A DNA stretch of 40,824 nt, from NCBI GenBank assembly GCA_032718475.1, contig JAUCBJ010004376.1:1-40824 (forward strand), written 5' to 3'. This DNA is from Nemertoderma westbladi. Its lineage: Eukaryota; Animalia; Xenacoelomorpha. Both the position numbers and the translations under genes were made by a program. Within the stretch, counting starts at the first letter, position 1; each line of letters opens with the position of its first letter. The notes beneath the pieces are model-generated. The model saw nothing but the letters and a program-made list of their open reading frames with translations, was not told where the DNA came from and searched no databases. Of this stretch, positions 1 through 34,921 are shown one piece after another.

Positions 1-394
1 ATCAATACCACCAAAACGATCCAAAATAATATATTTATATATTATTATTGATGTAATACGATAAAGTTACTGTAGAATTAATGATAAGTTTTATCTACTT
101 AATTATATAGTAGGTGTACCGAGCAACTATCAAAGAGAGTACTGTAAAAATGAATCATCTCATATTTCAATTTATAATTAATACAATTAATTTAAATTAT
201 CCTATTACGTTATCATACAGTATTTGCATGACATCTCATCAAAACAGTTATTGTATATGTGAACTAATGATAAAGGTTATATTCACAAGCCTATACTTAA
301 ACTTATCCTTTAGTTTTAATATTATATAATTATTATGAATACTGCATAACATATACTAATATCGATAACAAATTAAGAATACCAGCTAATAACA

Positions 395-1435
395 ATGAGC
401 AGCAAACTGCAACTGAATAATATCGACGATATTCAGCCCTACCCTATGCAACACGATTCGCGTGGAATTGCCTTGATATTCAACAACTCATTCGATGGAA
501 AATTTGCGTCAAAAGAACATGATGAGAGAAGTGGTTCTAAGGAAGACGAGACAGCCATTACAGCAGCATTGGGTATTTTGGGTTTCGATCGTATAAAATC
601 CTATCCGAATACAACGAAGAAGAATATGGAAGCATTGCTAGATGCGTACTCTGGCAATGATAAAATAAAACTAGACACTGAAGAGCTTAAAGAAGCAAAC
701 CACCTTAGTAGCGCTGTCCTGAAACAATCTGATTGTTTCGTTTGCGTGATCATGACACACGGAGGTGAGAACGATAAGATAGTTTGTGGGGACGGTAAGC
801 CCTGGGGTATTCGCAAAATTATCAGCAAGTTCGACGGTGAGAATTGTCAAGAACTAGTTGGTAAACCCAAAATATTTATAATTCAGGCTTGCAAGGGAGG
901 ACTAAAAAACAAACCTGTCTTTCGCAATGAACAGAAAGAAGGTCATGGACCAGCTGACGATGGTCAACTCTCGATTCCATCTTCTTCCGACTTTCTCATT
1001 TGTTACTCAACACTGGAAGGGTTTCCTTCTTATCGTCTCCCTGGTAGAGGCTCCTGGTACATTCGTACGTTGTCATTAGCTATACGCAACTTCGACAAAG
1101 CCAAGAAGTTGGAAACAACGGATTTTTCTCGACTACTTCTTTGGGTTCAAAATCGAATCGCGTTGATGTCAAGCCGAGGCCCAGCTTATCCCGATGAATT
1201 GGTCGAGGAGGATGGTGGTGATGTGATTGTTGAATTGATGAAACAACTAATGGTTGAAGCGAAATACGATGCAAAAGCTGAAGAAGTAAAAGCTGACGAA
1301 GTGCAAGCTGATGATGATAAGCTTACCGGTAGCGTCGGCAAAGAAAAGGAAGGAAAACAAATGCCGAGTCACCTCAATGCGTTACGATTTCTTCTGGTCT
1401 TTTCAAAGAAAAATTCACTTAAAAAAACGACATAA
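395..1435 (+). CDS. Caspase (peptidase C14A), short-prodomain effector-like, single exon
   Basis: 346-aa ORF with caspase motifs in order: YPM..SRGIALIFNN, ERSGS (S1 Arg), CFVCVIMTHG (catalytic His122), GKPKIFIIQACKG (catalytic Cys166), IP..SDFLICYST..GFPSYR...GSWYIRTL, KQMP. p20 and p10 are uninterrupted by introns. Orthology cannot be assigned by eye. Confidence 0.95.
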   Translation: MSSKLQLNNIDDIQPYPMQHDSRGIALIFNNSFDGKFASKEHDERSGSKEDETAITAALGILGFDRIKSYPNTTKKNMEALLDAYSGNDKIKLDTEELKEANHLSSAVLKQSDCFVCVIMTHGGENDKIVCGDGKPWGIRKIISKFDGENCQELVGKPKIFIIQACKGGLKNKPVFRNEQKEGHGPADDGQLSIPSSSDFLICYSTLEGFPSYRLPGRGSWYIRTLSLAIRNFDKAKKLETTDFSRLLLWVQNRIALMSSRGPAYPDELVEEDGGDVIVELMKQLMVEAKYDAKAEEVKADEVQADDDKLTGSVGKEKEGKQMPSHLNALRFLLVFSKKNSLKKTT

Positions 1436-3300: not shown

Positions 3301-3338
3301 ACAACGTCTGTATAATTAATACTGTGTATCTGTTAATA

Positions 3339-4223
3339 CCTACTGTCCACCTACTGGCTCCAGAAGTCGAGGAAATCCTGCTAAGTACCTAACTGATCTA
3401 GACTTTGCTGATGACTTAGGAGTACTCTCAGAATCATTAGAGGGAGCCCAACGGCTCCTCAGCTCATTAGAACATGCTGCTTCTAGTGTTGGTCTTTTTA
3501 TTAACTCCAAAAAGACCAAAATTCTGACAGTTAACTTTGAAAGTCCTCAGCAAGTCTCTGATCGGATGAGCATAAGCTCAAAGGATGGTATGCTTGAGCA
3601 TGTGGACGACTTCTGTTACCTGGGATCATGGATCCGGAAGTCAGGTGAGGACCTTCGAATACGTAAGGGAAAGGCATGGGCAGCCTTGAATAGGCTTTCC
3701 AGGATTTGGAAGTCACCGAGAATTAATCGGAAACTTAAGGTCCGATTATTTAGAGCAGCAGTAGTTCCAGTACTCCTCTATGGGAGTCCATGCTGGGCTC
3801 TAACTGCTGAGGACACCAAATCTCTGGATGGCACATTCACAAGAATGCTACGCCGGGTTCATTGTGTCAAGTACAATGCACACATCTCCAACCAGACACT
3901 ATATAACATTGGAAGTGTCTCATTGGTTCCCCCAAGCTTGACACTAGAACAAAATCGCCTCCGCTTTGCAGGACATTGCTTTCGCCGTGAGGACCAGCCA
4001 GTGCATAATCTTGTACTTTGGCAGCCTCATGGAGTGAATAAGCATGGTGGACAGCCCATGACTTTCTTGAGACGCATCTTAAAGGACACTGGCCTTGAAG
4101 ATGCGGATGATCTACAGTAGCAAATGTCATGGGTGATAGGGAGTTGTGGCGGTGCAATTTTGTTGACAAGCCGGCACAGCATTCTTAAAAATGCAGCTGC
4201 AATGCAGCATGCCGATCCTAGTA
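3339..4223 (+). mobile_element. 5'-truncated RTE-clade LINE with 13-bp target-site duplication
   Basis: Frame open from 3341: ...PAKYLTDLDFADDLGVLS...GLFINSKKTK...DDFCYLGS...LKVRLFRAAVVPVLLYGSPCWAL...RLRFAGHCFR. TSD GTATCTGTTAATA at 3326-3338 and 4224-4236; short (TAG)n tail. A 5-bp CAGTA insertion creates the stop at 4118-4120. Confidence 0.93.
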
Positions 4224-4355
4224 GTATCTGTTAATAAATTTCACTTATATTCGTTATATGTATGTAGTACATGATTAAAATGTTTAAATGAGCATCCATA
4301 AAATCCTTTCTTCACATACCGAACGCTGATAAGTTGGCAATGTAACAAAATCCCA

Positions 4356-4506
4356 TACATCATTGCTTGCAAAGGTCACTTTTCAGCGTTAAAGAACCTT
4401 GTTTATTTAAGTAAACCTCCCTCGCTGCGCTCGCTCGGTGCATAAATAAACTCGGGTGATAACGTTGTAAAGTGCTGCTTTGCACACAATGATGTAAATA
4501 GTTATT
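4356..4506. mobile_element. Short palindromic (hairpin) non-autonomous element, Crypton-like
   Basis: TACATCATTG..TGCAAAG pairs with CTTTGCA..CAATGATGTA; centre CTCGCTGCGCTCGCTCGG; ends GTAAATAGTTATT. Related to 5213-5365. Superfamily is inferred. Confidence 0.6.
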
Positions 4507-5211
4507 ATTCCAAAATTGTAACATTACCCAACGCCGTTAGTATTAACAGCGAGTTGTTAGTTAGAACTTACTTTACAGCCTTAGATGACATTACAGCATT
4601 GTATATTGGCCTGTACAATTAGCATTGTAGTGGGTGTTGTAATGTCCCATGTTTATGTAGTAACCAATGACGGCGAGCTGTAAAGTTACGGCGTCAATGG
4701 TTACGACGTAAACAATAGGTGGAAATTTGCCTGACAGCCAGATAGGCCTACTGCAATACCTACCGGTAGGCGGGGTATAGCTTAAGGCTATTAAGAGCTA
4801 CTTAGCTATTAAGAGATAGGATAGGCAACTTAAGACTGCCTGTTCAATAGAAGTGGATTAGGTGGGATAGTGAATGTCAGGGACAAGTGGCTGAACTGGT
4901 TAGCGCTACTGATGAGGCCTGACAGGCTGAAACGTACGTATAGCGCTGGTTCAACCCCCGGTGACGCGCTTTCTCATTTTTTTCCATTTCTGAACAAAAC
5001 CATAATATTACATACCTATTAATAACCGGTAGGGCCTAGCTATATTATTATAATAAGGCTCCAAACGTCACCATAAATATAAGCTAGCTTATTTATAACG
5101 TAATTTATGTCACTTTTACATTTATTTATACAGCAACTAATTTAATTTGTGCAGTTTCTATCATTTATAATATATATACAATCACTTCGTAATGCTACAA
5201 TTTTGGAATAA
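4505..5211. mobile_element. TIR element with 23-bp inverted repeats (TTATTCCAAAATTGTAACATTAC)
   Basis: 4505-4527 matches the reverse complement of 5189-5211 at 22/23. The same right end recurs at about 16255-16292. Confidence 0.7.
4880..4983 (+). ncRNA. Minimal type-I hammerhead ribozyme embedded in a tRNA-like (A-box/B-box) unit
   Basis: Stem I AGCGCTA 4902-4908 / TAGCGCT 4941-4947; core CTGATGA 4909-4915; stem II GGCCT-GAC-AGGCT 4916-4928; GAAAC 4929-4933; palindromic stem III ACGTACGT; cleavage triplet GTA 4938-4940. A-box-like TGGCTGAACTGG 4888-4899, B-box-like GGTTCAACCCC 4948-4958, T7 run 4977-4983. Confidence 0.85.
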
Positions 5212-5212
5212 A

Positions 5213-5365
5213 ACTATATACATACTTGTTGCAAAGTACTTTACAGTGTTCTGATCCTCGTGGCTTTATTTTCACTCACTCACTCACATTCGTTCGTGTA
5301 ACAAAGCCACTCGGATCATCACACTGTAAAGTGTTACTTTGCACACTAGTATGTAAATAGTTATT
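5213..5365. mobile_element. Second palindromic hairpin element, Crypton-like
   Basis: TACATACT..TGCAAAGTA.CTTTACAGTG..TGATCC..GTGGCTTT pairs with AAAGCCAC..GGATCA..CACTGTAAAG..TACTTTGCA..AGTATGTA; ends GTAAATAGTTATT like 4356-4506. Confidence 0.65.
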
Positions 5366-6420
5366 AAAATATACTAATATTGATTGTATTTAAATATTCC
5401 TTCAATCATATTCAAATTTTTAACAACTTGTGTGCTCTTTTTCAAATACAGTAATAAAATTTGTTACAATTTTGGAAATTACATTTTACTTAATTAATTC
5501 AAAGCTGCTATAAGTAAATATGTTTCGGTAAGGAAAGAACAACAAACGAAAAAGAATATTTTATCGAAATTGTATTATTGTTGCGGTACATAGTCCGTAG
5601 TTTGGGTGATTGGGATAATTTGTTTTTTTAGTGTTATTTATAACGTTTTTTGTGTGGCAATAAATATACTAAATCCTATACTATACTGTCTGGTCAGCTT
5701 GTACCCCAGAAAGATCTGACTGCCATTTTAGAACACTTTGACATCATAGTTTGATATTTGGTACATTGATGGACCTGATTTCAACATTTTTTTGTCAAAT
5801 TTCAAATTTTTGGCGGGAAATTTGAATTTTGACAAAAATTAGAAAAATTGCTACTAGTTTGTAACACGTTGGTCTTTTGAGGTGAAAATTTCATAATATG
5901 TTTGGAAAAATAACCTCCTCACTTGGTAGAAAAGGTATTACGATCGAACCAACGAACTCTGATATTTTGACAGTTAACCATATTTATTTTTAAATTTCTC
6001 AAAAAACTGTATTTTTTAAACAAAAAATGTTAAATTACTCAATTTAATTTAAGTTTTTCCAAAAAAAAAATCTACCAACTGACCACGGTATAATTACAAA
6101 CCGATCTGGAAAATTTCATCCGTATTGGTGCAAAATTAGCGGAGCCTTAGCCTTTAGAAGTTAAAAAAAAACATGAAACTGAGAAAAACAACTTTAAACA
6201 AAATTGTATATAAAACTTAATAATTTATAAAGGCCGATCGATTATATTTAAAAGCGTTTGTGTAGTTATGCATAAGTGTCAATTTCAAAGTTTTAGATTT
6301 TCCCTTTTGACTTCTTTCATTGCAAGCGCCCAGTATTTGAGTGCTGGAATGCTACATTTTAGGCTATATCAATGTTCAATAACAAGTCTGTCTGTCTGTC
6401 TGTACTGGCCTCCATATCTA

Positions 6421-7712: not shown

Positions 7713-8189
7713 AGGTTATCACTGCAGTAATGACTATATTATATTGCCAGACAATGAAGCGTTAAGCGTTGTTCTTCAATTCAACTTTATAACTCTATAG
7801 AGGCACCTCCGGTATGCTTGTATCTTTACGTTTAAAGTCCTTCATGCATATAAAGCGTTTCACTCTCTCCAGTTTTTTTCACGTATATTTAACTCTAACA
7901 ATAATATTTAATATATATACGCTATACATGTCTGTGTAATTCGGTGCTTCACTCTACTCTGCAGAAAATTAAATTGTATCTCTTATTGGGCGGGTCCGGG
8001 TATTCCTTTGTAATAATCACTATAGTGCTACTGTATTAATAGATTTGTTTGTTTGTTTACCGGTATTGACATAGAACCTTTTATGGATCTGGAATAAAGA
8101 ATCTAATAATAATAATAAATTATACTCTACCTTCGTCATTTAGCGGTAAATCCGCATTTCATATTTGTGTTAATGCAATATGCATCTTT

Positions 8190-10012
8190 AAAACCTGCTC
8201 CTTTATTAACCTGCATAATTTTTTAAAACGAGTTAACTATCGTTTTTTGTTTTGGTTCAATCTACACGCCTCTGTAACCTGCTCCTGTACTAATCTACAT
8301 AATCTTGTAACACGTGTTAACTATCGTTTATTGTTTAGGTTCTATCTACACGCCTCGGTAACCTAGTCCTTTACTAAACTACATAATTTTCTCTAACACG
8401 AGTTAATCGTATATTGTTTTGGTTCAATCTATCCGCCTCCGCAACCTGATTCTTTACTAACGTACATGTTGTAACATGTGTTAACTATCGTTTATTGTTT
8501 TGGTTCTACCCACCCTCCTCTATAAGCCTGATCATTTACTAACCTGCATAATCTTATAACATGTGTTAACTATCGTTTATTGTTTTGGTTCTATCTACCC
8601 TCCTCTATAGCCTGCTCCTTTACTAACCTGCACAATCTTGTAGCATGTGTTAACAATCGTTTATTGTTTTGGTTCTTTCTATCTGCCTCTATAACCTGCT
8701 CCTTTACTAACCTGCATAATCTTGTAACATATGTTAACTATCGTTTATTGTTTTGGTTCTATCTACCCTCCTCTATAACATGATCCTTTACTAACCTGTA
8801 TAATCTTGTAACATGTGTTAAGTATCGTTTATTGTTTTGGTTCTATCTACCCGCCTCTATAACCTGCTCCTTTACTAACCTGCATAATCTTGTAACATGT
8901 GTTAACTATCGTTTATTGTTTTGGTTCTATCTACCCTCCTCTATAACCTGATCCTTTACTAATACTAACCTGCATAATCTTGTAACATGTGTTAACTATA
9001 TTTTATTGTTTTGGTTCTATCTGCCCGCCTCTATAACATGCTCCTTTACTAACCTGTATAATATTGTAACATGTGTTAACTATCGTTTATTGTTTTGGTT
9101 CTACCTACCCTCCTCTATAGCCTCATTTACTAACCTGCATAATCTTATAACATGTGTTAATTATCGTTTATTGTTTTGGTTCTATCTACCCTCCTCTATA
9201 GCCTGCTCCTTTACTAACCTGCATAAACTTGTAATACGTTTATTGTTTGGTTCAATCGATCCGCCTCCGCAACCTGATTCTTTACTAACCTACATGTTGT
9301 AACACGTGTTAACTATCGTTTATTATTTTGGTTCTATCTACCTGCCTCTGTAAACTGATCCTTTACACACTTGCATAATCTTGTAACATGTGTTAACTAT
9401 CGTTTATTGTTTTGGTACTATCTACCCGCCTCTATAGCCTGCTCCTTTACTAACCTGGACAATCTTGTAACATGTGTTAACAATCGTTTATTGTTTTGGT
9501 TCTATCTACCCGCCTCTATAACCTGCTCCTTTACTAACCTGCATAATCTTGTAACATGTGTTAACTATCGTTTATTGTTTTGGTTCTATCTACCCTTCTC
9601 TATACCATGATCCTTTACTAACCTGTATAATCTTGTAACATGTGTTAAGTATCGTTTATTGTTTTGGTTCTATCTACCCGCCTCTATAACCTGCTCCTTT
9701 ACTAACCTGCATAATCTTGTAACATGTGTTAACTATCGTTTATTGTTTTGGTTCTATCTACCCTCCTCTATAACCTGCTCCTTTACTAATACTAACCTGC
9801 ATAATCTTGTAACACGTGTTAACTATCGTTTATTGTTTTGGTTCTATCTGCCCGCCTCTGTAACCTGCTCCTTTACTAACCTGCATAATCTTATAACACG
9901 TGTTAACTGTCGTTTATTGTTTTGATTCTATCTGCCTGCCTCTCTAACCTGCTCCTTTACTAACCTGCATAATCTTGTAACATGTGTTAACTATCGTTTA
10001 TTGTTTTGGTTC
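8190..10012 (+). repeat. Tandem repeat, 84-bp unit, about 21-22 copies
   Basis: Unit AACCTGCTCCTTTACTAACCTGCATAATCTTGTAACATGTGTTAACTATCGTTTATTGTTTTGGTTCTATCTACCCGCCTCTAT (starts at 8861 and 8945, for example). Confidence 0.97.
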
Positions 10013-10159
10013 TTTTTGGTTCTAGTCGGTGGGGTTGACTTGTTGACGAGGGGCTATTATGAGGTATAATGAGATACGCATTGCGTATCTTCTTCAGTCA
10101 ACCACTATAATGGCCGATCAACAAATAAATACCAATAATCACTAATATAATGGCAGATC

Positions 10160-10519
10160 CCAAATTCCATATTCCCATAAATACCTTAATCCCAAATACC
10201 TTATTCCCAAATCCCAAATCCTTATTCCCAAATCCCAAATACCTTAATCCCAAATCCTAAATACCTTATTTCCAAATCCCAAATACCTTATTCCCAAATC
10301 CCAAATACCTTATTCCCAAATACCTTAATCCCAAATACCTTATTCATTAAATCCCAAATACCTTATTCCAAATCCCAAATACCTTATTCCCAAATCCCAA
10401 AGACCTTATTCCCAAATCCCAAATACCTTATTCCCAATTCCCAAATACCTTATTCCCAAATACCTTATTTCCAAGTCCCTTATTCCCAAATTCCTTAATC
10501 CCACATGGTATTTGCGTCC
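10160..10519 (+). repeat. CCCAAATACCTTATT (15/22-bp) array ending in a MITE terminus
   Basis: Array ends ATTTGCGTCC at 10519. The reverse complement GGACGCAAAT opens the same array at 32481. Confidence 0.9.
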
Positions 10520-11138
10520 GTACTCCGTACTGTAACTGTACTTCAATCCATACCGCACCACAGTACCGGTACCGGTACAGTCTTTTAATCTGACTTTTTA
10601 TCACCTGGCCACCTCTACCAGTCTACTGACCTATTGGGCTATTACTGTATTACAGTATTAATTAACAATGTTTTATCATAATTCTGTTTTGTATTACTGT
10701 ATTATTCTTTTACCGGTCAGCCGGTAAATAATTTTAGGCTATTGCAGTATTTCTGTAGGCCTATTTATTTATTGCCAATTATAATATTTACAATAGGCTA
10801 ACTACTGAACTATTTCATACAACTACGACTGTACGAGCACAAAATTTATTACAGTAGGCCTATTGTACAAGCTGACAAGCACACAATTTTGTAGAATTTC
10901 AACTGTTCAAGCCGGTACAGCGGTACCAGCTGTACACAGGCTGACAGGTACATTCAGCTGGTCCTGGCACCAGGTAGCCAGACACCAGACAGACAGCCAG
11001 AGCCATAGTGCTGCAGTGCCAGAAGGAACCAAAACAATAGGCCCAAAACTGTAAACTGCTAAACGATTTGAAAAAATAAAAATTCGAATTTTTCTGAGTC
11101 AGTTAGTATGTAGTATTACAGTATTACTGTAGTACCGT

Positions 11139-13700: not shown

Positions 13701-13772
13701 AAGATTATTAATTATAGATTATATTATATTATATACGATTATAGAAGAAAATAGATTATTAGAAAAAATTAT

Positions 13773-15236
13773 AAACATTTCAACGGCTTGTTACATAATG
13801 TTACAGTATGCCACGTGCTGTGTGAAGGTCTCATAAACGTTTCAACAGCTTGTTACACAATCTTACAGTGCGCCTCGTTCTGCGCGAAGGCCTTTTAAAC
13901 TTTCCAACACCTTGCTGCCTGGCTGCCTTGTTACACAATGTTACACTACGTCACATGCTGCGCGAAGATCTCAAACGTTTCAACAGATTGTTTCAGTATC
14001 TCACATAACTGCATAATGCTTGAAGGCGGGAAGGTATCTTAATCGTTTCAACAGTTTGTTACACAATGTTGGAGTACGCCACGTGCTGCGCGAAGGTCTC
14101 TTAAACTTTTCAACAGCTTGTTAACAATGTTACACTACGCCAATTGCTGCGCGAAGGTATCTTAAAGTTTCAACAACTTGTTACACAATGTTACAGTATA
14201 CAACGTGCTGCGTGAAGGTCTCTTAAACGTTTTAACAGTTTGTTACAAAATGTTGGATTACGCCATGTGCTGCGCGAAGGTCTCTTAAACTTTTCAACAG
14301 CTTGTTACACAATGTTACAGTACGTCACATGCTGCGCGAAGGTCTCAAACGTTTCAACAGATTGTTTCAGTATCTCACATAATGCGTGAAGGCAGGAAGG
14401 TACCGGTATCTTAATCGTTTCAACAGATTGTTTCAGTACCCCACGTGCTGCTTGAAGGTCTATTAAACGTTTCAACAGCTTGTTAACAATGTTACAGTAC
14501 ACCACGTGCTGCACGAAGGTTTCTTAAACGTTTCAACAGCTTGTTACACAATGTTGGAGTACGCCACGTGCTGCGCGAAGGTCTCTTAAACAATGTAACA
14601 GTTTGTTACACAATGTTACAGTGCGCCATGTGCTGCGCCAGGGTCTCTTAAACGTTTCAACAGCTTGTTACACAATGTTACAGTTCGCCACATGCTGCGC
14701 AACGGTCTCAAACGTTTCAACAGATTGTTTCAGTACCCCACATGCTGCACGAAGGTCTATTAAACGTTTCAACAGCTTGTTAACAATGTTACAGTACGCC
14801 ACGTGCTGCGCGATGGTCTCTTAAACGTTTCAACAGCTTGTTACACAATGTTGGAGTATGCCACATGCTGCGCGAAGATCTCTTAAACGTTTTAACAGCT
14901 TGTTACACAATGTTACAGTTCTGCAGTTCGCAACATGCTGCGCGAAGGTCTCAAACGCTTTAAAAGATTGTTTCAGTATCTCGCATACTGCGAGAAGGTC
15001 TCTCAAACGTTTCATCAGATTGTTACACAATGTTACAGTATCCCATGTGCTGCACGAAGGTCTCTTAACGTTTCAATAGATTGTTTCAGTATCCAACGTG
15101 CTGCATTAATGTATCTTTAACGTTTCAACAGATTGTTACAGTGTCCCACATGCTGCACGATGGTCTCTTAAATGTTTCAATGGATTGTTTCAGCATCTCA
15201 CAGACTGCGTGAAGGCAGGAAAGACATCAAGGCAGG
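13773..15236 (+). repeat. Satellite of mixed ~62-bp and ~51-bp units, resuming at 17919-18012 after an insertion
   Basis: Unit AAACGTTTCAACAGCTTGTTACACAATGTTACAGTACGCCACGTGCTGCGCGAAGGTCTCTT; the short variant lacks the ACACAATGTT duplication. Confidence 0.95.
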
Positions 15237-15919
15237 AAGGGCAGTCAGGGAGATCATCAAATTTGAGAATACCTCAAATTTCAAATTATAGACCCAATTT
15301 TGGAATTACCTCAATTTTAATACAAGGTTAGGTTAATTCTCTAAATTTGAGTTATACCCCAAATTTGAATTTCATAGCAGCATAGTCAGATACAGACAGA
15401 AGTCATAGTTGACCTAGTTCAGTAGTTGTTAGCTTGTTACTGTATTGCAAAGGTAAAAAAATAAACTGATGTAGGCCTAGGGTAGTGTCTGAGTGTTGTG
15501 AAATATAATAATTAAAATTAAAACATATTCAGTATTAGTTTAAAAAGGCTTATACTTAAAAAGGCTACTGGTAGGGGTGCAGTGGGGTGGCTGATCAGAT
15601 GGTAGACATATAAAACGAAGTACAGAGCTTAAAGAACTTATATTTTTATATTGTTACTTTTTTGCTTGAATCAGTGAATATGCCCTAAAATCGGGAGAAA
15701 AAGTAGTAGGCCTACTTTTTTTCCCCACTAGTAGGGAAAAAGTTGTCCCCGTAATATCTGAATATTGTAACTTTTTGTTGGGCACAGCTTTTGCAAAGTC
15801 GGCAACACAGCAACCTGCAATAATATTGAATAATATTGCCACATAATAATGCATCATAGAGCCATAATTTTGCATTGATTTTACTTTTTCTCCCGGTAAA
15901 AAAAGTAAAATAAAACATT

Positions 15920-20270: not shown

Positions 20271-22271
20271 ATTAAAATTTTTTTTAAAATATTAACAATG
20301 TTGATGTTGCAATTATATTTATTATGTAGATTCAAAGTACTAGGCCTACAGTCTGACAGTACTAAGATAAGCTTTGAAACGCTCAAACTTGTAAAAAAGG
20401 ATGATGTATGAGGGGTGCTGGTCACCTCGCCGCACTGCCACTTCGCTGCAAGTCATCTCGCCGCAGATATTGTGCAGCGAGGTGTCTTGCGGCGAGGTGT
20501 CTCACTGTGATTGCCATTTCGCCGCAAATTATCGGACACCTCGCCGCAAGTCAATATTAATCATTTATTTCTATATTTACAGTGAAGCCTACTAAGCCTA
20601 GTTATGGCATTGGACATTATTATAAGAAGAAATAAAATAATACGGTAAGGTTGGTTGTTCTATTATAATTACTGTATTATTATTATAGATATACAGCGAG
20701 AGTATTTCAGTAACGTATTAGATTATAGTCAAACAGTCCTACTCGTATGTTTGTCAAAAATGTTGATCAGTTGTTTAAAACAAGTGTGACGTTATGAACG
20801 TTAAAAAATTTATATTTAAAATTGTAATGTATGCCTGCAGTATATTTCACTAGTTAAAATTTGGAATAAAACCTTTCATTGCGAAATTTATATTTCTAAT
20901 AACTATTTACGTACATGTACAATGCGTAGGCCTACATGGGTAGTTTTAGTAATGCAGTAACTAAGTACGGAAACGGAAGTAAGGTACATAACATAATGTA
21001 ATAAGGTTAATACTGTACAGTATGTTTATGTTAACTGATCGCCAACTCTAAGGGTCTGTTCACATATTACTATGGGGAGGGGAGGGTTCGGGAATAAATG
21101 TTACGTTTGCAAAGGGTCTGAGGTGTGGGGATGGGGGGTGGGGGCGGGTTGTCGGGGTCGGGGTAGGGTGCTTTCAATATACGACGATATTTGCAGTTTA
21201 AAGTTTACATTTATGATTTGCAATGTTTTTCTTTTATATTAAATTGCCACATTAGGGTTCAACAGAAGGCACTTTATGGTGCCGAACCGAACCGAAGCAG
21301 GGCCAACTTCGGGCCGAACCGAACCGAATCCGAACCGAAGTTCAGAAAGTTAGCAAGTTATGGTCATAAATTCGTATTTACGTCACTACAGCACTATAGG
21401 CCTACTGGCCTGCTGGCAGTGGCAGACTGGTACCTATTTGGTCTGCGGACTTAGCAAGAAAGCTATGATTAATTAAAAAAATAAGTACTACAAAATAAAA
21501 TGACAATATTTACATTACTGTACATTACTAACCTAAACTACTGTATACTTACTGTATGCACCACATTTTAACCCGTAGTAAGCCGTACAGTACACAGTAG
21601 TGACATCAAATTTAGAAAACCTCACTAAAAGTACAGGTAGTCTTTGTAATACTATTTATATGAGGTAGTAGGTATATTTCTGTATTTGGTATTATGTATC
21701 AAAGTTATGATTATTAAAAAATAGGTACTACAAAGTAAAATGGCAATAGGCCTATTTATTTAGCCTAACCTAAACTACTGTATAATTAAGCTAATTTTGA
21801 AACTACCCGGCAAGTAAGCTGAAAACAATTAAAAAAATAATGCCATTTAAATGGAAGTTCGTGTAAACGTTAAGCAGACAGTGGTGCAGACACCTGGTGC
21901 GGACAGTGGTGCAGACACCTGGTGCGGACAGTGGTGCAGACAGTGGTACAGCGTGCAGACGGTGGTGCAGGCACTGGTGCAGACACTGGTGCAGACAGTG
22001 GTGCAGACACAGGTGCAGACAGTGATGCAGACAGTGGTGCAGCGTGTAGACAGTGGTTCAGACACTGGTGCAGACACTGGTGCAGGTGCAGACAGTGGTG
22101 CAGACAGTGATGCAGACACTGGTGCAAACACTGGTGCAGACAGTGGTGCAAACTAGTGCAGAAAGTGGTGCAGACACTGGTGCAGACAGTGGTGCAGACA
22201 CTGGTGCAGACAGTGTTGCAGACAGTGATGCAGACAGTGGTGAAGGCAGTGGTGCAGACACTGGTGCAGAC

Positions 22272-24175
22272 CCAGGTTGGAATTTATGTAGAGTTTGCTC
22301 AACATGTGTGGCGCGGATTAAGGATCCTGGCGCGTAGTGACAGGGGCGTGTGGCGCGGATTAAGGATCCTGGTGCGTAGTGACAGGGGCGTGTGGCGCGC
22401 ATTGAGGATCCTGGCGGTCCTGGCGCGAATATGGATGTAGGGTTAGGTTAGGACAGTAGGAGGTTGCGTAGCAGTGCACTAGCAACACATCCCACTCTAC
22501 AGCTCTATTTGAAATTATTCCATACAGCCATATGTTTAAAAAGATTGAAAAATGTCCGCTCGCTTCGCTCGCGTTTATACTGTAAGCCTACTCTTAGCAC
22601 TGTCTGGCTGTGGACAAATGGAAACAGACAGATTGAGCATGACCATTAAAAACATGACTTGTTTCAAAAGTTTTTCAATTGTCAGATTCTTCAAACCAAT
22701 AAAACCATGACAGCCTGCATGATTCAGCAGAATTTCCGGGCTCCCTACGCTCGCCAGCTCGCAATTTAATGACATCTGCATTTCTGCATTTGAAAACAGT
22801 CGGTTTGCCTACTTTAAATGCTGAAATGTTAAAATTTTCGTGCTCGCTACGCTCGCATCTTGTTCACATCTGCATTTAAAAACAGTCAGTTGACGTTGAC
22901 CTACTACTAGGCCTACAACAGTACAACTACAGCACTATCTGACTTAGGGCTCAACAGAAGCTTCGGCTTCTGTTCGGTTCGGGCCGAAGTTTGGCAATTT
23001 CGGTTCGGTTCGGCTTCTGCAATTGATACTGCAGAAGCCCGGAGCAAACTTTGCTAAATATTCCAAGTATTACAGTATTACATTGACTGATTGAGCTAAG
23101 ACAATAAGACTAATCAATCTGTCCATCGTTGTACTAATTAATTTTGGACTGAACTTCCATTTAAATGGCATTATTTTTTTAATTGTTTCCAGTTTACTTG
23201 GGTAGTTTCAAAATTAGCTTAATTATACAGTAGTTTAGGTTAGGCTAAATATTGCCATTTTACTTTGTAGTACCTATTTTTTAATTAATCATAACTTTGA
23301 TACATAATACTAAATCTACTACCTCATATAAATAGTATTACAAAGACTACCTAACCTGTAATTTTAGTGAGGTTTTCTAAATTTATGTTACTACTGCAGT
23401 ACTGTCAGACTGTACGGCTTACTACGGGTGAAAATGTGGTGCATACTGCATACAGTAAGTGCATGCATACAGTAAGTGCATAACAGTACTTCTTAATACT
23501 GAACTGAACATCCAGCAGGAACATCCATTGAAAGTGTAATAGGCCTATTTTTTTGTGTATTTTTTTAATTGTTTGCAGTTTACTTGGGTAGTTTTCACAA
23601 TTAGCTTAATAATACAGTAGTTTAGGTTTGTAATGTACAGCAATGTAAATTTTACTTTGTAGTACTTATTTTTTTAATTAATTATAGCTTTCTCACTAAG
23701 TCCGCAGACCAAATAGCGAAATAGGTATCAGTCTGCCACTGCCAGTCAGCCAGTACTGCAGTATAGTCAGATAGTGACGTAAATACGAATTTATGACCAT
23801 AAACCTTGCTAACTTTCTGAACTTCGGTTCGGATTCGGTTCGGTTCGGCCCGAAGTTGGCCCTGCTTCGGTTCGGTTCGGTTCGGCCCCATAAAGTGCCT
23901 TCTGTTGAACCCTAATCTGACTATTACTGTCAGACTGTATTTATGTTTAACATAATTGGAAACTTTCCTTGCTCGCTACGCTCGCATTTTAATGTTAAAA
24001 TACTGCAGTACTGTAGGGCTGCAGCATTATAAACTGATAAATTATTAAAATTAAGCAATTACTGCAAAATTTCATAGTCAATTGTTGGCTTGGCGCGCAT
24101 TAGATATCATGGCTGGCGCGATTTTCGTTTAACCAGAAAGCGTGTGGCGCGCTTTTTGTCAGTATTCCATATAGG
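22272..24175. mobile_element. Second CCAGGTTGGAATT-type element inserted in the 12-bp array
   Basis: GTGCAGAC|CCAGGTTGGAATTT ... degenerate ATTCCATATAGG|GTGCAGAC; TGGCGCG subterminal repeats at both ends; internal GCTCGCT(A/T)CGCTCGC motifs. The TSD is weak evidence because it lies in a repeat. Confidence 0.65.
22945..23914 (-). mobile_element. hAT-type MITE copy B, 8-bp TSD (ATCTGACT)
   Basis: ATCTGACT(22937-22944)|TAGGGCTCAACAGAAG ... CTTCTGTTGAACCCTA|ATCTGACT(23915-23922). Confidence 0.93.
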
Positions 24176-25108
24176 GTGCAGACAGTGGTGCAGACAGTGC
24201 AGACTAACTACAGTAAGGTCTCAGGAATTCTTAGCCCGCGAGTTTTCTTAGCCTGCGAGTATTCTTGGCCCTTGGGTATTCTTAGCCTGCAAAACAATAA
24301 CGTTTATTGTTTTGGTTCCCCCAATACTCCTCTGAAACCTGCTCCTTTACTAAACTGCTCCTTTACTAACCTGCTCGCCCCTTTACTGTCTGCACCAGTG
24401 TCTGCACCACTGTCTGCACCAGTGTCTGCACCACTGTCTGCACCACTGACAGACTGGCTGCACCATTGTCTGCACCACTGTCTGCACCAGTGTCTGCACC
24501 ACTGTCTGCACCAGTGTCTACACCACTGTCTGCACCAGTGTCTGCACCACTGTCTGCACCACTGTCTGTACCACTGTCTGCACCAGTGTCTGCACCACTG
24601 TCTGCACCAGTGTCTGCACCACTGTCTGTACCAAAACCTGCACAACTGTCTGCACCAGTGTCTGCACAACTGCACCACTGTCTGCACCAGGTGTCTGCAC
24701 CACTGTTTGCACCACTGTCTGCACCACTGTTTGAACCACTGTTTGCACCACTGTCTGCACCACTGTCTGCCAGTCTGCACCACTGTCTGCACCACTGTCT
24801 GCACCAATGTCTGCCCAGTGTCTGCACCACTGTCTGCATCACTGTCTGCACCACTGTCTGCTCTGCACCAGTGTCTGCTTAACGTTTTCACCCCAAAATT
24901 AATTAGTACAACGATGGACAGATTGATTAGTCTTACTGTCTTCTGGCAGTCTGGTCTTAGCTCAATCAGTCAATGTATTACTTGGAATATTTAGCAAAGT
25001 TTGCTCCGGGCTTCTGCAGTATCAATTGCAGAAGCCGAACCGAACCGAACCGAAATTGCCAAACTTCGGCCCGAACCGAACCGAAGCCGAAGCTTCTGTT
25101 GAGCCCTA

Positions 25109-26666: not shown

Positions 26667-26750
26667 TAATTAAATAGGGCATCCCTACAGTACTGCAGTA
26701 ATAAGTTCAAGGTTTGCGACTTTTCTTAATCCAATGGTTGTGAGGAAATA

Positions 26751-28559
26751 ATGCAAAACATATATTATACTGGGACTGTGAGCGATTCTGCCAATCGAAC
26801 TCAACTAGAAGGTTATTCCAACGGTAGTGGGGCCGCCGGTAACGTTTCTGATTACTTAATAGCCCATCAATCGAGTTCCAACGACGTAATCGTAGACGCT
26901 ACCGGTAATTTCCAAACCACACCGTCCTTTGGTCAAGGCGACGCCGGAATCGGCTTGAAAAGGGGCTCGGTAGTCATGGATACCGACATTAGTATGTCTG
27001 TTGCTATGGACTCAAAGAAGGCTAAATTAGTGGAAGGAGATGGGTCGAGAGGCAGTCGGGGTGTGCCCCCACCTTCTCGAGTTATTCATATCAGAAATAT
27101 ACCGAGAGATATTTCTGAGGCGGAAATTGTTGAGTTTGGAGCTCCTTTCGGAAAGGTGACCAACATTCTAATGGCACGACAAAAGAATATGGCTTTTTTA
27201 GAGTTTGAATCTGTGGATCAGGGTGTTGCTTTGGTTTCGTATTACGAGCATAAATCGCCGATTCTGGGGAACAGAGTTGTATTTGTGAGCTACTCGATGC
27301 ACAAAGTCCTCGACATGCATGGCAGACCGAGTATAGATAGTACCAAGATGGGGTTTCTGCAAGGCGTCCAGACGAGCGCCCATTCCAACGCGGCCCAGGG
27401 ACGGCAAGTAAGTTGCGCGGGTAAGGTGTTGATAGTGATAGTGGAAAACATTCTGTACCCGGTGGAGGTAGACACGCTCCATCTTATATTCTCTAAGAGC
27501 GGTCCGGTCGCTCGCATAATGAGGTCCTTCAGTAAGCAGGGACCGTATCAAGCGCTCATTGAGTACGAACAGCCAGAAGCGGCGTACGCAGCGAAGGTTC
27601 ACCTCGACGGCCAGCGCATATACAACGTGTGCGACGGATACATCCTGCGAATCGATTACAGCAACTTGCCCACGCTAATGGTGCGACACAATGACGAAAA
27701 CAATCGGGACTACACCCTCGATAAAAGCCTGACCCACAGCAACCCCCAGCCCTTCCTCAACCCACCCATGATGGGCGAGGGGAGGTACCCCCCGAGTATG
27801 CTGCCTCTCTTACCGCCGTCTCACCAGTTTCCAGGCAACAGCAATGCCACCGCTCACGGATCCAACCAATCGCAGCAGGTGTTCCCTGGTCCTGGATTCG
27901 ATCCGGAGTCCTCCCGTGGTGGTGGCCCCATGATGCCGCCAATGCCGGGATCTGTTCTCCTCGTCACCAACATTAACGTTGATAAACTCAACATAAACGC
28001 GATGTTTACGTTGTTTGGAATCTACGGCGACGTCCAAAGAATTAAAATCCTATATGAAAAGCGAAATAACGCTCTCGTAGAGATGACTAATCCCACGGAA
28101 GCGCAGTCCTGCATAAATCACCTGTCGGGTAAAAGTGTGTATGGTAGCACCATCCGAGTGGTTCAATCGAAGCACCCCACAATCACATTCAACCGGCCGC
28201 AGGCACCCGACGATTCCGGGGATCCAATCCTCGCCAAGGATTTCTCCGGCTCCACGGCTCATCGATTCAAGATCCCTTCGTCCCGGAACCAACAGAACGT
28301 GTACCCTCCCTCATCCATCCTCCATATATCCAACATACCGGAAGGCGTCACCTCCGACGATATTGTCGCAATTTGCAAGTCGTTCGACCTCGACATAATA
28401 TCATTCAACTTCTTTAAGAATACACAGAAGATGGGACTGGCCCGTCTTGAGTCGATGGAGCAGGGGATTGAGGGTGTCATTGCATTGCATAACTACCCCA
28501 TCAAAGATAAGGTCTCACTCAAAGCCAGCTTCGCCAAGAACAATCCTCACTCTTTCTAA
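26751..28559 (+). CDS. PTBP: Polypyrimidine tract-binding protein (PTB/hnRNP I) homologue, four RRMs, single exon
   Basis: Bipartite NLS GLKRGS...DSKKAK; RRM1 PSRVIHIRNIP..FGKVTNIL..AFLEF; RRM2 VLIVIVENILYPV..LHLIFSKSG..QALIEY..LDGQRIYNVC..LRIDYS; Pro/Gly linker; RRM3 SVLLVTN..FTLFGIYGDVQRIKIL..ALVEM; KDFS.S..HRFKIPSSRNQQNVYPPSSILHISNIP; RRM4 ending LKASFAK. Confidence 0.95.
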   Translation: MQNIYYTGTVSDSANRTQLEGYSNGSGAAGNVSDYLIAHQSSSNDVIVDATGNFQTTPSFGQGDAGIGLKRGSVVMDTDISMSVAMDSKKAKLVEGDGSRGSRGVPPPSRVIHIRNIPRDISEAEIVEFGAPFGKVTNILMARQKNMAFLEFESVDQGVALVSYYEHKSPILGNRVVFVSYSMHKVLDMHGRPSIDSTKMGFLQGVQTSAHSNAAQGRQVSCAGKVLIVIVENILYPVEVDTLHLIFSKSGPVARIMRSFSKQGPYQALIEYEQPEAAYAAKVHLDGQRIYNVCDGYILRIDYSNLPTLMVRHNDENNRDYTLDKSLTHSNPQPFLNPPMMGEGRYPPSMLPLLPPSHQFPGNSNATAHGSNQSQQVFPGPGFDPESSRGGGPMMPPMPGSVLLVTNINVDKLNINAMFTLFGIYGDVQRIKILYEKRNNALVEMTNPTEAQSCINHLSGKSVYGSTIRVVQSKHPTITFNRPQAPDDSGDPILAKDFSGSTAHRFKIPSSRNQQNVYPPSSILHISNIPEGVTSDDIVAICKSFDLDIISFNFFKNTQKMGLARLESMEQGIEGVIALHNYPIKDKVSLKASFAKNNPHSF

Positions 28560-31650: not shown

Positions 31651-32480
31651 AACTATTGTCCCAATCTCAAAACCCTTTCAACAAATAGTTAATTCGGTCT
31701 GTTGTCAATTAAGGGGAAGGAGCAGGTTACAGTTTGTCTGTGACTGGTAATTAGTTGTTTAGACCATGATTAACTTCTGCCCCCAACACAATGTCAAGTA
31801 TGGCCGTATACAGGCCGTCACGTGGTGGGACATGGCAGTTTTTCAACCTGGCCAAATAAATGTTTACGTAGCAGTCTCACTGATACAACCCATACGGCAT
31901 ACATGGTAGAACTATCAGAGAAATGGATGTGGTGATCTAAATCTTTATGAGTTCGCGTTTTCTGATCGAAAACATCTGTTATGTATGGGACACTTTTTTG
32001 GACCATTTTGGAGACGCTCACGCAATTTAATCATATGAACTGCTAAAACACTAAAAATTGCCAATCTAACAGAAACACATGGAAGAATATGAGTGGAAAT
32101 ATGAGTGTTAACACATCGGGTTAATGGTCCTTATTTGACTATTTATATGCCATTAAATTAATCATTTACCGAGTGTCACGGACCACGTTAACTTTTGTTG
32201 TATTTCTGATATTTCAAATTTACTACGAAGCTACGTTTATTTGTTCACAGGAAGTATACTCAGCAGGGATATTAGTCGTTTAGCACCTGAATTGTAATTT
32301 TAATGGCCAAAATGAGCCCGTAATCACATTAACAAATTTTGTTTTTAAATTCGATGTTACTTTTTCTATAACAAACTGTGGTTGGTGTGTATCACAGCAG
32401 GAGGGGACCGATTATAATGTATCTGGCGCAGATAGGGGGGGAAACTGGACACACAGAAAATTATCTCACCAGTGGAAACT

Positions 32481-32790
32481 GGACGCAAATCCCAGAAATG
32501 GTGAATTTGGGAATAAGGTATTTGGGATTTGGGAATAAGGTATTTGGAATTTAGGAATAAGGTATTTGGGATTTGGGAATAAGGTATTTGGAATTTAGGA
32601 ATAAGGTATTTGGGATTAAGGTATTTGGGAATAAGGTATTGGGGATTAAGGTATTTCGGAATAAGGTATTTGGAATTTAGGAATAAGGTATTTGGGATTA
32701 AGGTATTTGGGAATAAGGTATTGGGGATTAAGGTATTTCGGAATAAGGTATTTGGAATTTGGGAATAAGGTATTTGGGAATAAGGTATTT
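32481..32790 (-). repeat. MITE terminus plus AATAAGGTATTTGGG array (same family as 10160-10519)
   Basis: GGACGCAAAT at 32481 followed by the reverse-complement 15/22-bp array. Confidence 0.9.
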
Positions 32791-33019
32791 GTCTCTTCTT
32801 ATTAGCCATCTGGTTACTATGATTGAGGTCTGTGAGGTAGTTGGATATAAGGATGTGTTTTAGTATTTTTTCAAAAATGTTGATAGATACTATGGGCCGG
32901 TAAGATGATGGGTTGTAAGTATTCCGTCCCTTGCCTTTGAATGGGCTGATTAAGACTGAATCTCCGTAAGAAGAGGGCACCGATTTTAGTAGGAAACAAC
33001 AATTGACCAAGTTAGCCAA
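32791..33019 (-). mobile_element. LINE reverse-transcriptase N-terminal fragment (pseudogenic)
   Basis: LANLVNCCF....VPSSY..SVLISPFKGKG....NPSSYRPIVSINIFEKIL, typical non-LTR RT domains 0-2; truncated by the adjacent repeat array. Confidence 0.75.
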
Positions 33020-33969
33020 TTTTCACATACAGGGTCTGGCTAGAAGTGAAGTAGGTGCTCTATTGTTAGAGATTACATATCTGGTGCCTTCCAGTAGATA
33101 TTGATATGATAGCGCGCCTTACTGAAAGAGGTGTGTGTGGCACGGGGTTTTTCTTGCAGTCTTCATCTAATTTATTTGAATTCTTAGATCGAGCAGCTTT
33201 TCTGTATCTTGACATAACCTACTATAATACGACCTGGCAAGCTGCAGCAACCCTTCAAATTTAGTGGGCCTACTTTTTTTTTACTTGTAAACTGGTTGTT
33301 ATTTTTCCAGTTACACTCTCCATGCGTTTTTTTTTTATCATTGGTGACATCAATCAACGATTTTTTCATGGAAAAATCAAGCAGCGTAGCTCAGACTGCG
33401 TAAACAAACCGTAAAATATTAATAATATAATGGGGGGTTACTGTGTTTGAAGTCAACATATTGAAATGGCATACTCCTCAAAAAATGAAATAAGTTTGAA
33501 TAAAGTGCAATATACATTTTTGTTGGACTATAATATTGAATTTAGATAAATTTACTTAAATTTCTGTAAGACTATCGGTCGGTCTCTCCAACTGTCTGTC
33601 TGCCAAATAAAAAGTAAAGCACACCATCTCCTAAAAGTACATTGCTAAGGGCTGCAATAGCTATTGTTATGGGGGTTTTCCTGGGCTGTGATTTCTATTC
33701 CCTATGTCTGTTTTTACGTACGTAAACGGTCCCTCAACCCATGCTTTACTGATATTATTACTTTATATTACTATTAGATACTTTATATCACTATCAAGTT
33801 CTTTATGTCAATACTTTATTGTTTATATTAGTATATATTACGACTACCGACCCAATATTTACCAGTCACCACCTCCTGTGTAAAAACACATCAATGGCAC
33901 ATCACTGTATGCACTGCACATAATGAAGTTTACGTTTATCGGTACTACTGTAGCTTTGTTATAACACAT

Positions 33970-34921
33970 ACACGGTGTACAACAGTCCATCTCGTTGGGT
34001 ACCCTATACCCACCCAACACGGTGTACAACTAACAGTCCATCTCGTTGGGTACCCTATACCCACCCAACACGGTGTACAACTAACAGTCCATCTCGTTGG
34101 GTACCCTATACCCACCCAACACGGTGTACAACAGTCCATCTCGTTGGGTACCCTATACCCACCCAACACGGTGTACAACAGTCCATCTCGTTGGGTACCC
34201 TATACCCACCCAACACGGTGTACAACAGTCCATCTCGTTGGGTACCCTATACCCACCCAACACGGTGTACAACAGTCCATCTCGTTGGGTACCCTATACC
34301 CACCCAACACGGTGTACAACAGTCCATCTCGTTGGGTACCCTATACCCACCCAACACGGTGTACAACAGTCCATCTCGTTGGGTACCCTATACCCACCCA
34401 ACACGGTGTACAACTAACAGTCCATCTCGTTGGGTACCCTATACCCACCCAACACGGTGTACAACAGTCCATCTCGTTGGGTACCCTATACCCACCCAAC
34501 ACGGTGTACAACAGTCCATCTCGTTGGGTACCCTATACCCACCCAACACGGTGTACAACAGTCCATCTCGTTGGGTACCCTATACCCACCCAACACGGTG
34601 TACAACAGTCCATCTCGTTGGGTACCCTATACCCACCCAACACGGTGTACAACAGTCCATCTCGTTGGGTACCCTATACCCACCCAACACGGTGTACAAC
34701 AGTCCATCTCGTTGGGTACCCTATACCCACCCAACACGGTGTACAACAGTCCATCTCGTTGGGTACCCTATACCCACCCAACACGGTGTACAACAGTCCA
34801 TCTCGTTGGGTACCCTATACCCACCCAACACGGTGTACAACAGTCCATCTCGTTGGGTACCCTATACCCACCCAACACGGTGTACAACAGTCCATCTCGT
34901 TGGGTACCCTATACCCACCCA
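33970..34921 (+). repeat. Homogeneous 47-bp minisatellite, 20 copies
   Basis: Unit ACACGGTGTACAACAGTCCATCTCGTTGGGTACCCTATACCCACCCA; three units carry a 4-bp TAAC insertion (952 = 20x47 + 12). Confidence 0.98.

What the first reader, a model, noticed from the sequence alone, without database searches (positions are those of the whole stretch)
4880..4983. Hammerhead ribozyme replacing the anticodon arm of a tRNA-like Pol III unit
Seen: a complete hammerhead core (CUGAUGA, stem II, GAAAC, GUA site, 7-bp stem I) whose stem I starts right after a D-arm/A-box sequence and runs into a T-arm/B-box (GGTTCAACCCC), followed by a T7 run. Stem III is 2 bp closed by the palindrome ACGUACGU. Known: minimal type-I hammerheads with palindromic stem III occur in Penelope-like retroelements and cleave as dimers; Schistosoma Sm-alpha repeats combine Pol III boxes with a hammerhead. 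Inference: a roughly 100-nt self-promoting, self-cleaving mobile RNA that cuts itself into tRNA-half-like pieces after A4940, here carried inside a DNA TIR element. The first stem II pair is G-U rather than G-C, so this copy may be weakened.
Basis: partly seen in the sequence, partly recalled or inferred. Interest (0 to 1): 0.85.

Follow-up and report, generated by a model that had tools for sequence, protein, structure and literature searches.

The report
Hammerhead retroelement splitting its tRNA promoter
A roughly 200-base repeat, present at many places in an animal-type genome, carries a predicted self-cutting hammerhead RNA placed between the two halves of a tRNA-type promoter motif, and it likely spreads as an RNA copied back into DNA by Penelope-type enzymes, a new layout of a design known from blood flukes.

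Summary
The motif is real: a complete type I hammerhead (4902-4947, predicted cut after 4940) between an exact A box and B box, then T7. It is far beyond chance. It is not a tRNA fold, because the acceptor, D and T stems do not form. Instead the A and B boxes are predicted to pair and extend helix I. Contigs of four DNA runs show it belongs to a multi-copy family of at least 200 bp (4813-5013), with many unique 3' flanks and back-to-back inverted copies. Here it is a rare nested insertion in a TIR element, not cargo. Most copies have G-C at the first stem II pair, so this copy is the weaker form. The unit folds as a plus-strand rod reaching beyond the Pol III start and terminator, so the selected RNA is likely longer than 100 nt. 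Best reading: a solo, possibly 5'-truncated non-LTR retrozyme of the Sm-alpha type, likely moved by a Penelope-type enzyme. Expression and cleavage are untested. Earlier scan notes report the same layout in tandem arrays of this genome (unchecked here). New variant of a known kind.

The parts
4813..5013 (+). One copy of a multi-copy non-coding repeat (at least 200 bp; the family may run further on both sides); predicted rod-like RNA
   Evidence: Depth rises from 361 (4790-4809) to 55,000-493,000 (4820-5009) in X1. 21 and 44 contigs have long, low-agreement loose ends behind 5012 and 5013. Fold -64.6 kcal/mol, z -3.5.
4819..4845 (+). 5' hairpin of the unit, role unknown
   Evidence: 9 pairs, probabilities 0.89-1.00
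4848..4872 (+). 5' strand of the outer rod helices, upstream of any tRNA-type start site
   Evidence: Predicted to pair with 4967-4992. Duplex -24.9 against -13.1 +/- 2.6 kcal/mol, 1 of 2000 shuffles; minus strand -8.4.
4888..4899 (+). A box (Pol III type 2 promoter motif); 4892-4897 is also predicted to pair with the B box in the RNA
   Evidence: Strict consensus match. Pair probabilities 0.74-1.00 in the full unit. The natural variant at 4895 keeps both roles.
4898..4901 (+). 4-nt bulge in extended helix I; likely tertiary partner of loop II
   Evidence: Unpaired in the predicted fold; the role is inferred from canonical type I hammerheads (PMC4209133)
4902..4947 (+). Type I hammerhead: helix I 4902-4908/4941-4947, core 4909-4915, helix II 4916-4928, GAAA 4929-4932, palindrome 4932-4939, predicted cut between 4940 and 4941
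   Evidence: None of the 18 listed X1 variants falls in the invariant core or helix I.
4948..4957 (+). B box (Pol III promoter motif), downstream of the predicted cut
   Evidence: Strict consensus match; no listed variant in it
4977..4983 (+). T7 run, Pol III terminator-like; one T shorter in 37% of X1 depth
4967..4992 (+). 3' strand of the outer rod helices; includes the T run and 9 bases beyond it
4806..4812 (.). Candidate target-site duplication, left copy (CTATTAA)
   Evidence: Same 7-mer at 5016-5022. Empty-site contigs join 4780 to 5016/5017.
5016..5022 (.). Candidate target-site duplication, right copy
4781..4805 (.). 25-base filler at the 5' junction, with a second copy of the target/element junction
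   Evidence: Absent from the empty site; internal repeat 4787-4800 with 4805-4818
4505..5211 (.). Host non-coding TIR element (MITE-like) into which the unit inserted; arms 4505-4527 and 5189-5211
   Evidence: 22 of 23 complementary. 43 (X1) and 49 (X3) contigs with unique flanks before 4505.

Best explanation
This is a solo, possibly 5'-truncated copy of a multi-copy non-coding repeat of at least 200 bp, likely a non-LTR retrozyme (Sm-alpha-like retroelement), whose predicted dimer-type hammerhead lies between the A and B boxes of a likely RNA polymerase III promoter. Shown: the motif, the multi-copy family, its 3' boundary, the nested insertion, the inverted joints. Predicted by folding: the A and B boxes pair to extend helix I, the whole unit forms a rod with the ribozyme at its tip, and two molecules join through the palindrome into an active double hammerhead. 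Inferred: in master copies (likely tandem) polymerase reads through the T6-7 run into the next unit; neighbouring ribozymes cut after position 4940; the unit-length RNA would be closed into a circle by RtcB; and a Penelope-type reverse transcriptase/endonuclease primes near 5013 at an A+T-rich target and copies it into DNA. Because the cut lies between the two boxes, a cut linear monomer would carry them in the wrong order, so copies like this one, with the cut site intact in the middle, would have to come from uncut or re-ligated RNA.
For: Motif beyond chance. 1,611 X1 contigs lie on 4760-5050, and 65 have long unique-looking flanks behind 5012/5013. 5 of 15 listed joints (21 in all) join opposite strands. 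One (4834 to 4908) must be 5'-to-5' by geometry, and three start at 4813-4816. An inverted 5'-truncated copy next to the 5' end is a PLE hallmark (PMC8557442). There is a 7-bp repeat on both sides, a clean 3' junction and a scrambled 5' junction. Flanks are A+T-rich, as PAc prefers (PMC11167929). The rod is strand-specific: z -3.5 plus, -0.4 minus; plus-minus difference -19.5 against -8.2 +/- 4.3, 0 of 300 shuffles. 14 of 18 listed X1 variants fit the structure and 0 of 18 hit core or box invariants. The double hammerhead is the dimer minimum for the majority state at three lengths. 3 of 5 listed back-joints land at 4942, next to the cut site. Retrozymes are 170-400 nt, highly self-paired, RtcB-circularised, and occur as solo monomers (PMC7229834; bioRxiv 10.64898/2026.07.22.740005).
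Against: No tandem junction of this unit was seen among 15 of 21 listed joints or 14 of 243 listed loose ends, and the window copy is single. A T6-7 run 19 nt past the B box should stop Pol III before the rod is complete (recalled rule), so read-through is assumed. The variant test weakens to P 0.063 (structure) and 0.12 (core/boxes) with the whole unit as null range; 10 of 28 X1 variant sites were not shown; 4 of 18 break a pair. X4 contigs carry core or stem breaks (4915 in 9%, 4931 in 6%, 4925 in 15%, 4942 in 20% of depth; one or two contigs each). 12 of 204 windows show as large a strand asymmetry. The landing point of the back-joints is uncertain by about 3 nt and two of them may be one locus. 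No partner enzyme was identified. In PAc, cleavage is not needed for insertion in vitro.
Confidence: 0.6

Rival explanations
1. It is the 3'-terminal stump (pseudo-LTR) of a longer, protein-coding Penelope-like element whose body lies 5' of 4812 in other copies; the boxes serve as that element's internal promoter.
For: 13 X1 contigs share short upstream letters before 4812 (agreement 0.68), and some share letters behind 5013. Inverted joints and 5' truncation are PLE hallmarks. Scan notes on other genomes describe tRNA heads in pseudo-LTRs (unchecked).
Against: The ribozyme has the canonical, retrozyme-type build (helix II of 4-5 pairs, no extra base before G10.1), not the PLE minimal form. 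Three inverted joints start at 4813-4816. A T6-7 run follows the B box. The rod closes within 200 bp.
Confidence: 0.15
2. One reading: the functional and mobile species is the roughly 100-nt Pol III transcript (about 4876-4983), cut into two tRNA-half-like pieces.
For: Exact A box, B box and T7 at the right spacing. The T run stays at 6-7 in X1. Back-joints at 4942 could record a short 3' product.
Against: Family homology extends about 65 bp upstream and 30 bp downstream of that transcript. These flanks pair with each other in a strand-specific way. No cloverleaf.
Confidence: 0.08
3. It is a solo LTR of a small non-coding LTR retrotransposon (LTR retrozyme or Helenus-like TRIM with a tRNA-derived promoter).
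For: The 3' end reads CA at 5011-5012. TRIMs with tRNA-derived Pol III boxes in their LTRs exist (PMC10886601). A scan note describes an animal case (unchecked).
Against: No TG at the 5' end and no 4-6-bp duplication at the ends. 3' ends vary (5012, 5013). The consensus letters behind them show no primer-binding site. Inverted 5' joints are not expected from an integrase. Plant LTR retrozymes use type III hammerheads.
Confidence: 0.07
4. The unit spreads as DNA, as cargo of the TIR element or as a rolling-circle element, and the ribozyme is a passenger.
For: It lies inside a multi-copy TIR element; hairpin near one end.
Against: X1 depth at the junction (4790-4809) is 361 against at least 61,763 inside the unit, and 0 in X4. 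Empty TIR copies exist in X1-X4. Long contigs match the unit alone. No terminal inverted repeat and no TC...CTRR ends (end rule recalled).
Confidence: 0.05

Closest known systems
Sm-alpha / Sj-alpha SINE-like hammerhead retroposons of Schistosoma (PMC6765202 passages; PMC2770079 passages; Ferbeyre 1998 not held)
   Same: tRNA-type Pol III promoter plus type I hammerhead in one high-copy non-coding repeat
   Different: There the promoter is followed by the ribozyme and the tRNA-Gln head is whole enough for tRNAscan-SE to call it. Here the ribozyme and its cut site lie between the A and B boxes, the boxes are predicted to form part of helix I, no tRNA fold remains, and a T6-7 run follows.
Metazoan non-LTR retrozymes (PMC7229834 passages; bioRxiv 10.64898/2026.07.22.740005 part 1 of 5 and passages)
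   Same: Canonical type I hammerhead with a 2-bp helix III and palindromic loop, no ORF, size range, highly self-paired RNA, solo copies
   Different: Tandem copies of this family were not shown here. Neither paper mentions Pol III (0 hits), and the bioRxiv text has no hit for promoter or tRNA.
Penelope-like elements with hammerheads in the pseudo-LTR (PMC4209133 parts 1-2 of 4; PMC8557442 passages; PAc, PMC11167929 passages)
   Same: Dimer-type hammerhead, inverted 5'-truncated neighbours, A+T-rich targets, variable 3' ends
   Different: No ORF seen. The ribozyme lacks the min-HHR marks (7-8-bp helix II, extra base between positions 9 and 10.1).
Helenus / TRIMp3 (PMC10886601 passages)
   Same: Non-autonomous retroelement with tRNA-derived Pol III boxes inside a longer repeat
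   Different: Those are LTR elements with PBS/PPT, and the paper's text links no ribozyme to them; this copy lacks LTR ends.

Membership tests
Type I hammerhead ribozyme | Core CUGANGA, GAAA, UH and helices I-III in type I order | tested here: met
Type I hammerhead ribozyme | Rfam family at gathering score | tested here: not met
   None; Hammerhead_3 18.2 bits against 48.5
Type I hammerhead ribozyme | Self-cleavage at the predicted site | not testable with these tools
   Folding only; weak back-joints at 4942
PLE minimal hammerhead (min-HHR) | Long helix II (7-8 bp) and an unpaired base between positions 9 and 10.1 | tested here: not met
   Helix II has 4-5 pairs and follows A9 directly (definition)
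tRNA gene or pseudogene | Cloverleaf with acceptor, D, anticodon and T arms | tested here: not met
Pol III type 2 unit | A box, B box 30-90 nt apart, downstream T run | tested here: met
   (consensus recalled)
Pol III type 2 unit | Transcription by Pol III | not testable with these tools
   No usable RNA data
Non-LTR retrozyme | Multi-copy non-coding repeat of 170-400 nt with a canonical type I hammerhead | tested here: met
   At least 200 bp, multi-copy; full unit length not established
Non-LTR retrozyme | Tandem copies, each with a hammerhead | tested here: inconclusive
   Single in the window; no tandem joint among 15 of 21 listed; short contigs can hide it
Non-LTR retrozyme | Expressed as linear and circular monomers | not testable with these tools
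   No usable RNA data
Sm-alpha-type SINE | Whole tRNA-derived promoter followed by the hammerhead | tested here: not met
   The B box lies downstream of the cut site (Sm-alpha layout)
Penelope-like element (autonomous) | RT plus GIY-YIG ORF | tested here: inconclusive
   None next to this copy; 5 window ORFs scanned, only a LINE-type RT fragment; genome not held
Penelope-mobilised element | Inverted 5'-truncated copy next to the 5' end | tested here: met
   5 of 15 listed joints; orientation fixed by geometry for 1, inferred for 4
LTR element (TRIM, LTR retrozyme) | TG...CA ends with a 4-6-bp duplication | tested here: not met
   (rule recalled)

The most novel reading that the evidence does not exclude
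The promoter boxes do double duty as DNA promoter and as part of the ribozyme's helix I, and the family makes two RNAs. A short Pol III transcript ending at the T6-7 run acts in trans as the second half of the double hammerhead, so dispersed solo copies and long read-through RNAs can be cut without a tandem neighbour: a retroelement with its own small activator RNA.
Probability: 0.15. Interest if true: 0.8.

Novelty: new variant of a known kind. Interest (0 to 1): 0.52.

Why it matters
The two retrozyme papers consulted do not mention Pol III, so how these elements are transcribed looks open. This family offers a compact test case in which promoter, ribozyme and terminator share about 100 bases and the cut site splits the promoter. 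That layout predicts that only uncut or circularised RNA yields offspring with a working promoter, which makes the circle model directly testable. It also shows how a tRNA-type promoter and a ribozyme can overlap in sequence.

Tried and rejected
No genome is held, so copies could not be aligned and no covariance model was built. Sequencing runs: 6 listed, 5 hold the stretch or part of it, all organism A; no RNA holder listed. X5 gave 2 contigs and X6 none. Relatives elsewhere: the family-specific pattern gave 0 hits in metagenome contigs; relaxed patterns gave 30 metagenome and 16 viral loci, of which 0 of 46 had both stems (best stem II 3, best stem I 3) or an A box, and 0 of 38 scanned had a tRNA; 0 hits in prokaryote genomes. 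Relaxed ARAGORN gave 25 spurious calls, none matching 4881-4969. A second ribozyme in 4813-4880 was considered; Rfam shows none. The host lineage was not determined: the PTB-like protein is at most 40% identical to the 120 listed homologues, nearly all vertebrate, and 0 of 3 exact look-ups matched. Scan look-ups by sequence found no look-alike. Rod z-score alone is not distinctive: neighbouring DNA palindromes reach z -5 to -12; strand asymmetry is what separates it. The energy of a constrained active monomer or short-plus-long heterodimer was not obtained.

Full report
Observation. The hammerhead core, stems, palindrome, A box, B box and T7 run are at the stated places. A type I descriptor finds only this site in the window and none in 300 shuffles; the only strict A..B pair of the window lies on it (0.18 expected per shuffled window). 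With the core fixed, both boxes appear in 61 of 200,000 shuffles of the flanks. The box consensuses are recalled. Rfam gives no match at gathering score and only a weak Hammerhead_3 match.

It is not a tRNA with a swapped arm. Stem I uses the 3' side of the D arm and the 5' side of the T stem, so cloverleaf and ribozyme exclude each other. The acceptor stem makes 2 of 7 pairs, the D stem 2 of 4 and the T stem 3 of 5. ARAGORN and Rfam see no tRNA. In the predicted RNA the A box (4892-4897) pairs with the B box (4948-4953), extending helix I past a 4-nt bulge. With helix II of 4-5 pairs, no extra base before G10.1 and a 2-bp helix III closed by a palindromic loop, this is the canonical metazoan type I build rather than the PLE minimal one (PMC4209133, parts 1-2 of 4). 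tRNA ancestry of the boxes is inferred from the motifs alone.

The family. No genome is held, so I used contigs of public DNA runs, all labelled organism A. In X1, 1,611 contigs lie on 4760-5050; 447, 461, 479 and 224 are at least 99, 95-99, 90-95 and under 90% alike. Summed depth is 361 at 4790-4809 but 55,000-493,000 over 4820-5009; this figure is not a copy number. 21 and 44 contigs leave the stretch behind 5012 and 5013 with long loose ends of agreement 0.47-0.50, that is, separate flanks. Long contigs match the unit alone, for example 4812-5013 inside a 1,461-base X4 contig. So the unit is its own multi-copy family, at least dozens of loci. Its 5' limit is less sure: 13 contigs share short letters before 4812 (agreement 0.68), and some share letters behind 5013, so the family may be longer than this copy.

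The TIR element. The copy lies between 23-base inverted arms (4505-4527, 5189-5211). Contigs of X1-X4 join 4780 to 5016 or 5017, the same element without the unit, and X4 has no depth at 4790-4809. CTATTAA stands at 4806 and 5016, with 25 bases of filler on the 5' side. This reads as a nested insertion with a clean 3' and a scrambled 5' junction, as target-primed reverse transcription leaves (inference).

Marks of retrotransposition. Of 15 listed joints (21 in all), 4 skip the unit, 5 are internal deletions, 5 join opposite strands and 1 goes back. The joint 4834 to 4908 has 91 letters on its shorter side while only 75 lie 5' of 4834 in the stretch, so two 5' ends are joined. Three others start at 4813-4816; their orientation is inferred. 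An inverted 5'-truncated copy next to the 5' end is typical of PLE insertions (PMC8557442, passages), and PAc cuts A+T-rich DNA and starts copying inside the RNA (PMC11167929, passages). Of 5 back-joints listed within the unit, 3 land at 4942, beside the predicted cut. Two share one depth and may be one locus, and the landing point is uncertain by about 3 nt, so this is only a hint of cleaved templates. No tandem junction of the whole unit was listed.

Variation. X1 has 28 variant sites at 1% or more; 18 were shown and 10 were not. Of the 18, none hits the invariant core or box positions and 14 fit the predicted structure. Against random placement P is 0.005 and 0.02 within 4855-4978, a range chosen after seeing the data, but 0.063 and 0.12 over the whole unit. 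The structure was folded from the majority state, and linked variants are not independent. Useful cases: 4928 is C in 58% (X1) and 84% (X4) of depth, restoring G10.1-C11.1; the variant at 4895 (26%) fits both the A-box consensus and pairing with the B box; the variant at 4936 (5%) keeps the dimer helix by wobble. Against: 4869, 4872, 4883 and 4972 break a pair, and X4 has core or stem changes in one or two contigs each (4915, 4925, 4931, 4942).

RNA length. The 201-nt unit folds at -64.6 kcal/mol on the plus strand (z -3.5, 1 of 200 shuffles) but not on the minus strand (z -0.4). The upstream flank pairs with the T run and the bases beyond it (-24.9 against -13.1 +/- 2.6, 1 of 2000; minus strand -8.4). 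The plus-minus gap exceeds all 300 shuffles of the unit, though 12 of 204 windows of this region show as large a gap. A transcript from about 4876 to the T run lacks both outer strands, so the RNA under selection is likely longer than 100 nt.

Dimer. Helix III has probability 0.01-0.02 in the monomer. For the majority state the double hammerhead is the dimer minimum at three lengths, 11 kcal/mol below two monomers. For the window copy it lies 1.5 kcal/mol above an inactive duplex.

Mechanism and what is known. The best fit is a non-LTR retrozyme with an internal Pol III promoter, likely moved by a Penelope-type enzyme; a LINE partner is not excluded. Retrozymes are 170-400 nt, self-paired, closed by RtcB in vitro, and include solo monomers (PMC7229834, passages; bioRxiv 10.64898/2026.07.22.740005, part 1 of 5 and passages). 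Sm-alpha already joins a Pol III promoter to a hammerhead, but promoter first and with a recognisable tRNA-Gln head (PMC6765202 and PMC2770079, passages). Ferbeyre 1998 and Lunse 2017 were not held and are cited through the review. The difference here is that the cut site splits the promoter and the boxes are predicted to be part of the ribozyme. The T6-7 run is unexplained under this model: it needs read-through, or it points to a second, short RNA (the novel case). Transcription, cleavage and circles are all untested.

Novelty. Ten literature searches, judged from listings and the passages named above, showed no description of a hammerhead between A and B boxes. The library lacks most subscription papers, no supplements were read, and Repbase and Dfam were not available, so an existing catalogue entry cannot be excluded. 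Earlier AI notes of this scan report the same layout in tandem arrays of this genome (369-bp units, and a triple in 1,028 bases). I could not check them, and a look-up by sequence found no match; they are leads, not support. The host is animal-like (caspase and PTB-like genes), lineage undetermined. Verdict: real, a new variant of a known kind, interest 0.52.

Noticed in passing
window 4340-4507 and 5212-5366: Two related palindromic, multi-copy non-coding elements flank the TIR element directly; each has an end with unique flanks in the runs (behind 4507 and 5366).
   Followed up: partly
window 4650-4714: Imperfect inverted repeat inside the TIR element; this part has the lowest depth of the TIR element's left half.
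   Followed up: no
window 3320-4120: 3' fragment of a LINE-type reverse transcriptase frame (RVT_1 and DUF6451, both below Pfam cut-off).
   Followed up: partly
window 377-1435 and 26730-28559: Uninterrupted caspase (Peptidase_C14) and PTB-like reading frames; the PTB-like protein is at most 40% identical to listed homologues.
   Followed up: partly
window 4884-5011 in run X4: One 145-base contig of high depth (1,108) differs by 12 letters and 6 gap letters; variants of the same depth touch helix I and the T run: possibly a diverged subfamily.
   Followed up: no
window 4977-4979: Five listed deletion or inversion joints land at 4977-4979, leaving the last 35 or so bases as a separate piece, the size of the PLE 'tail'; T-run length variation may bias the landing point.
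   Followed up: no
window 8111-10532, 13710-15241, 21861-22284, 24361-24814, 32477-32842, 33938-34993, 38300-39100: Many tandem arrays (periods about 12, 15-22, 47, 62, 84), the 12-mer family at three places in both orientations.
   Followed up: no
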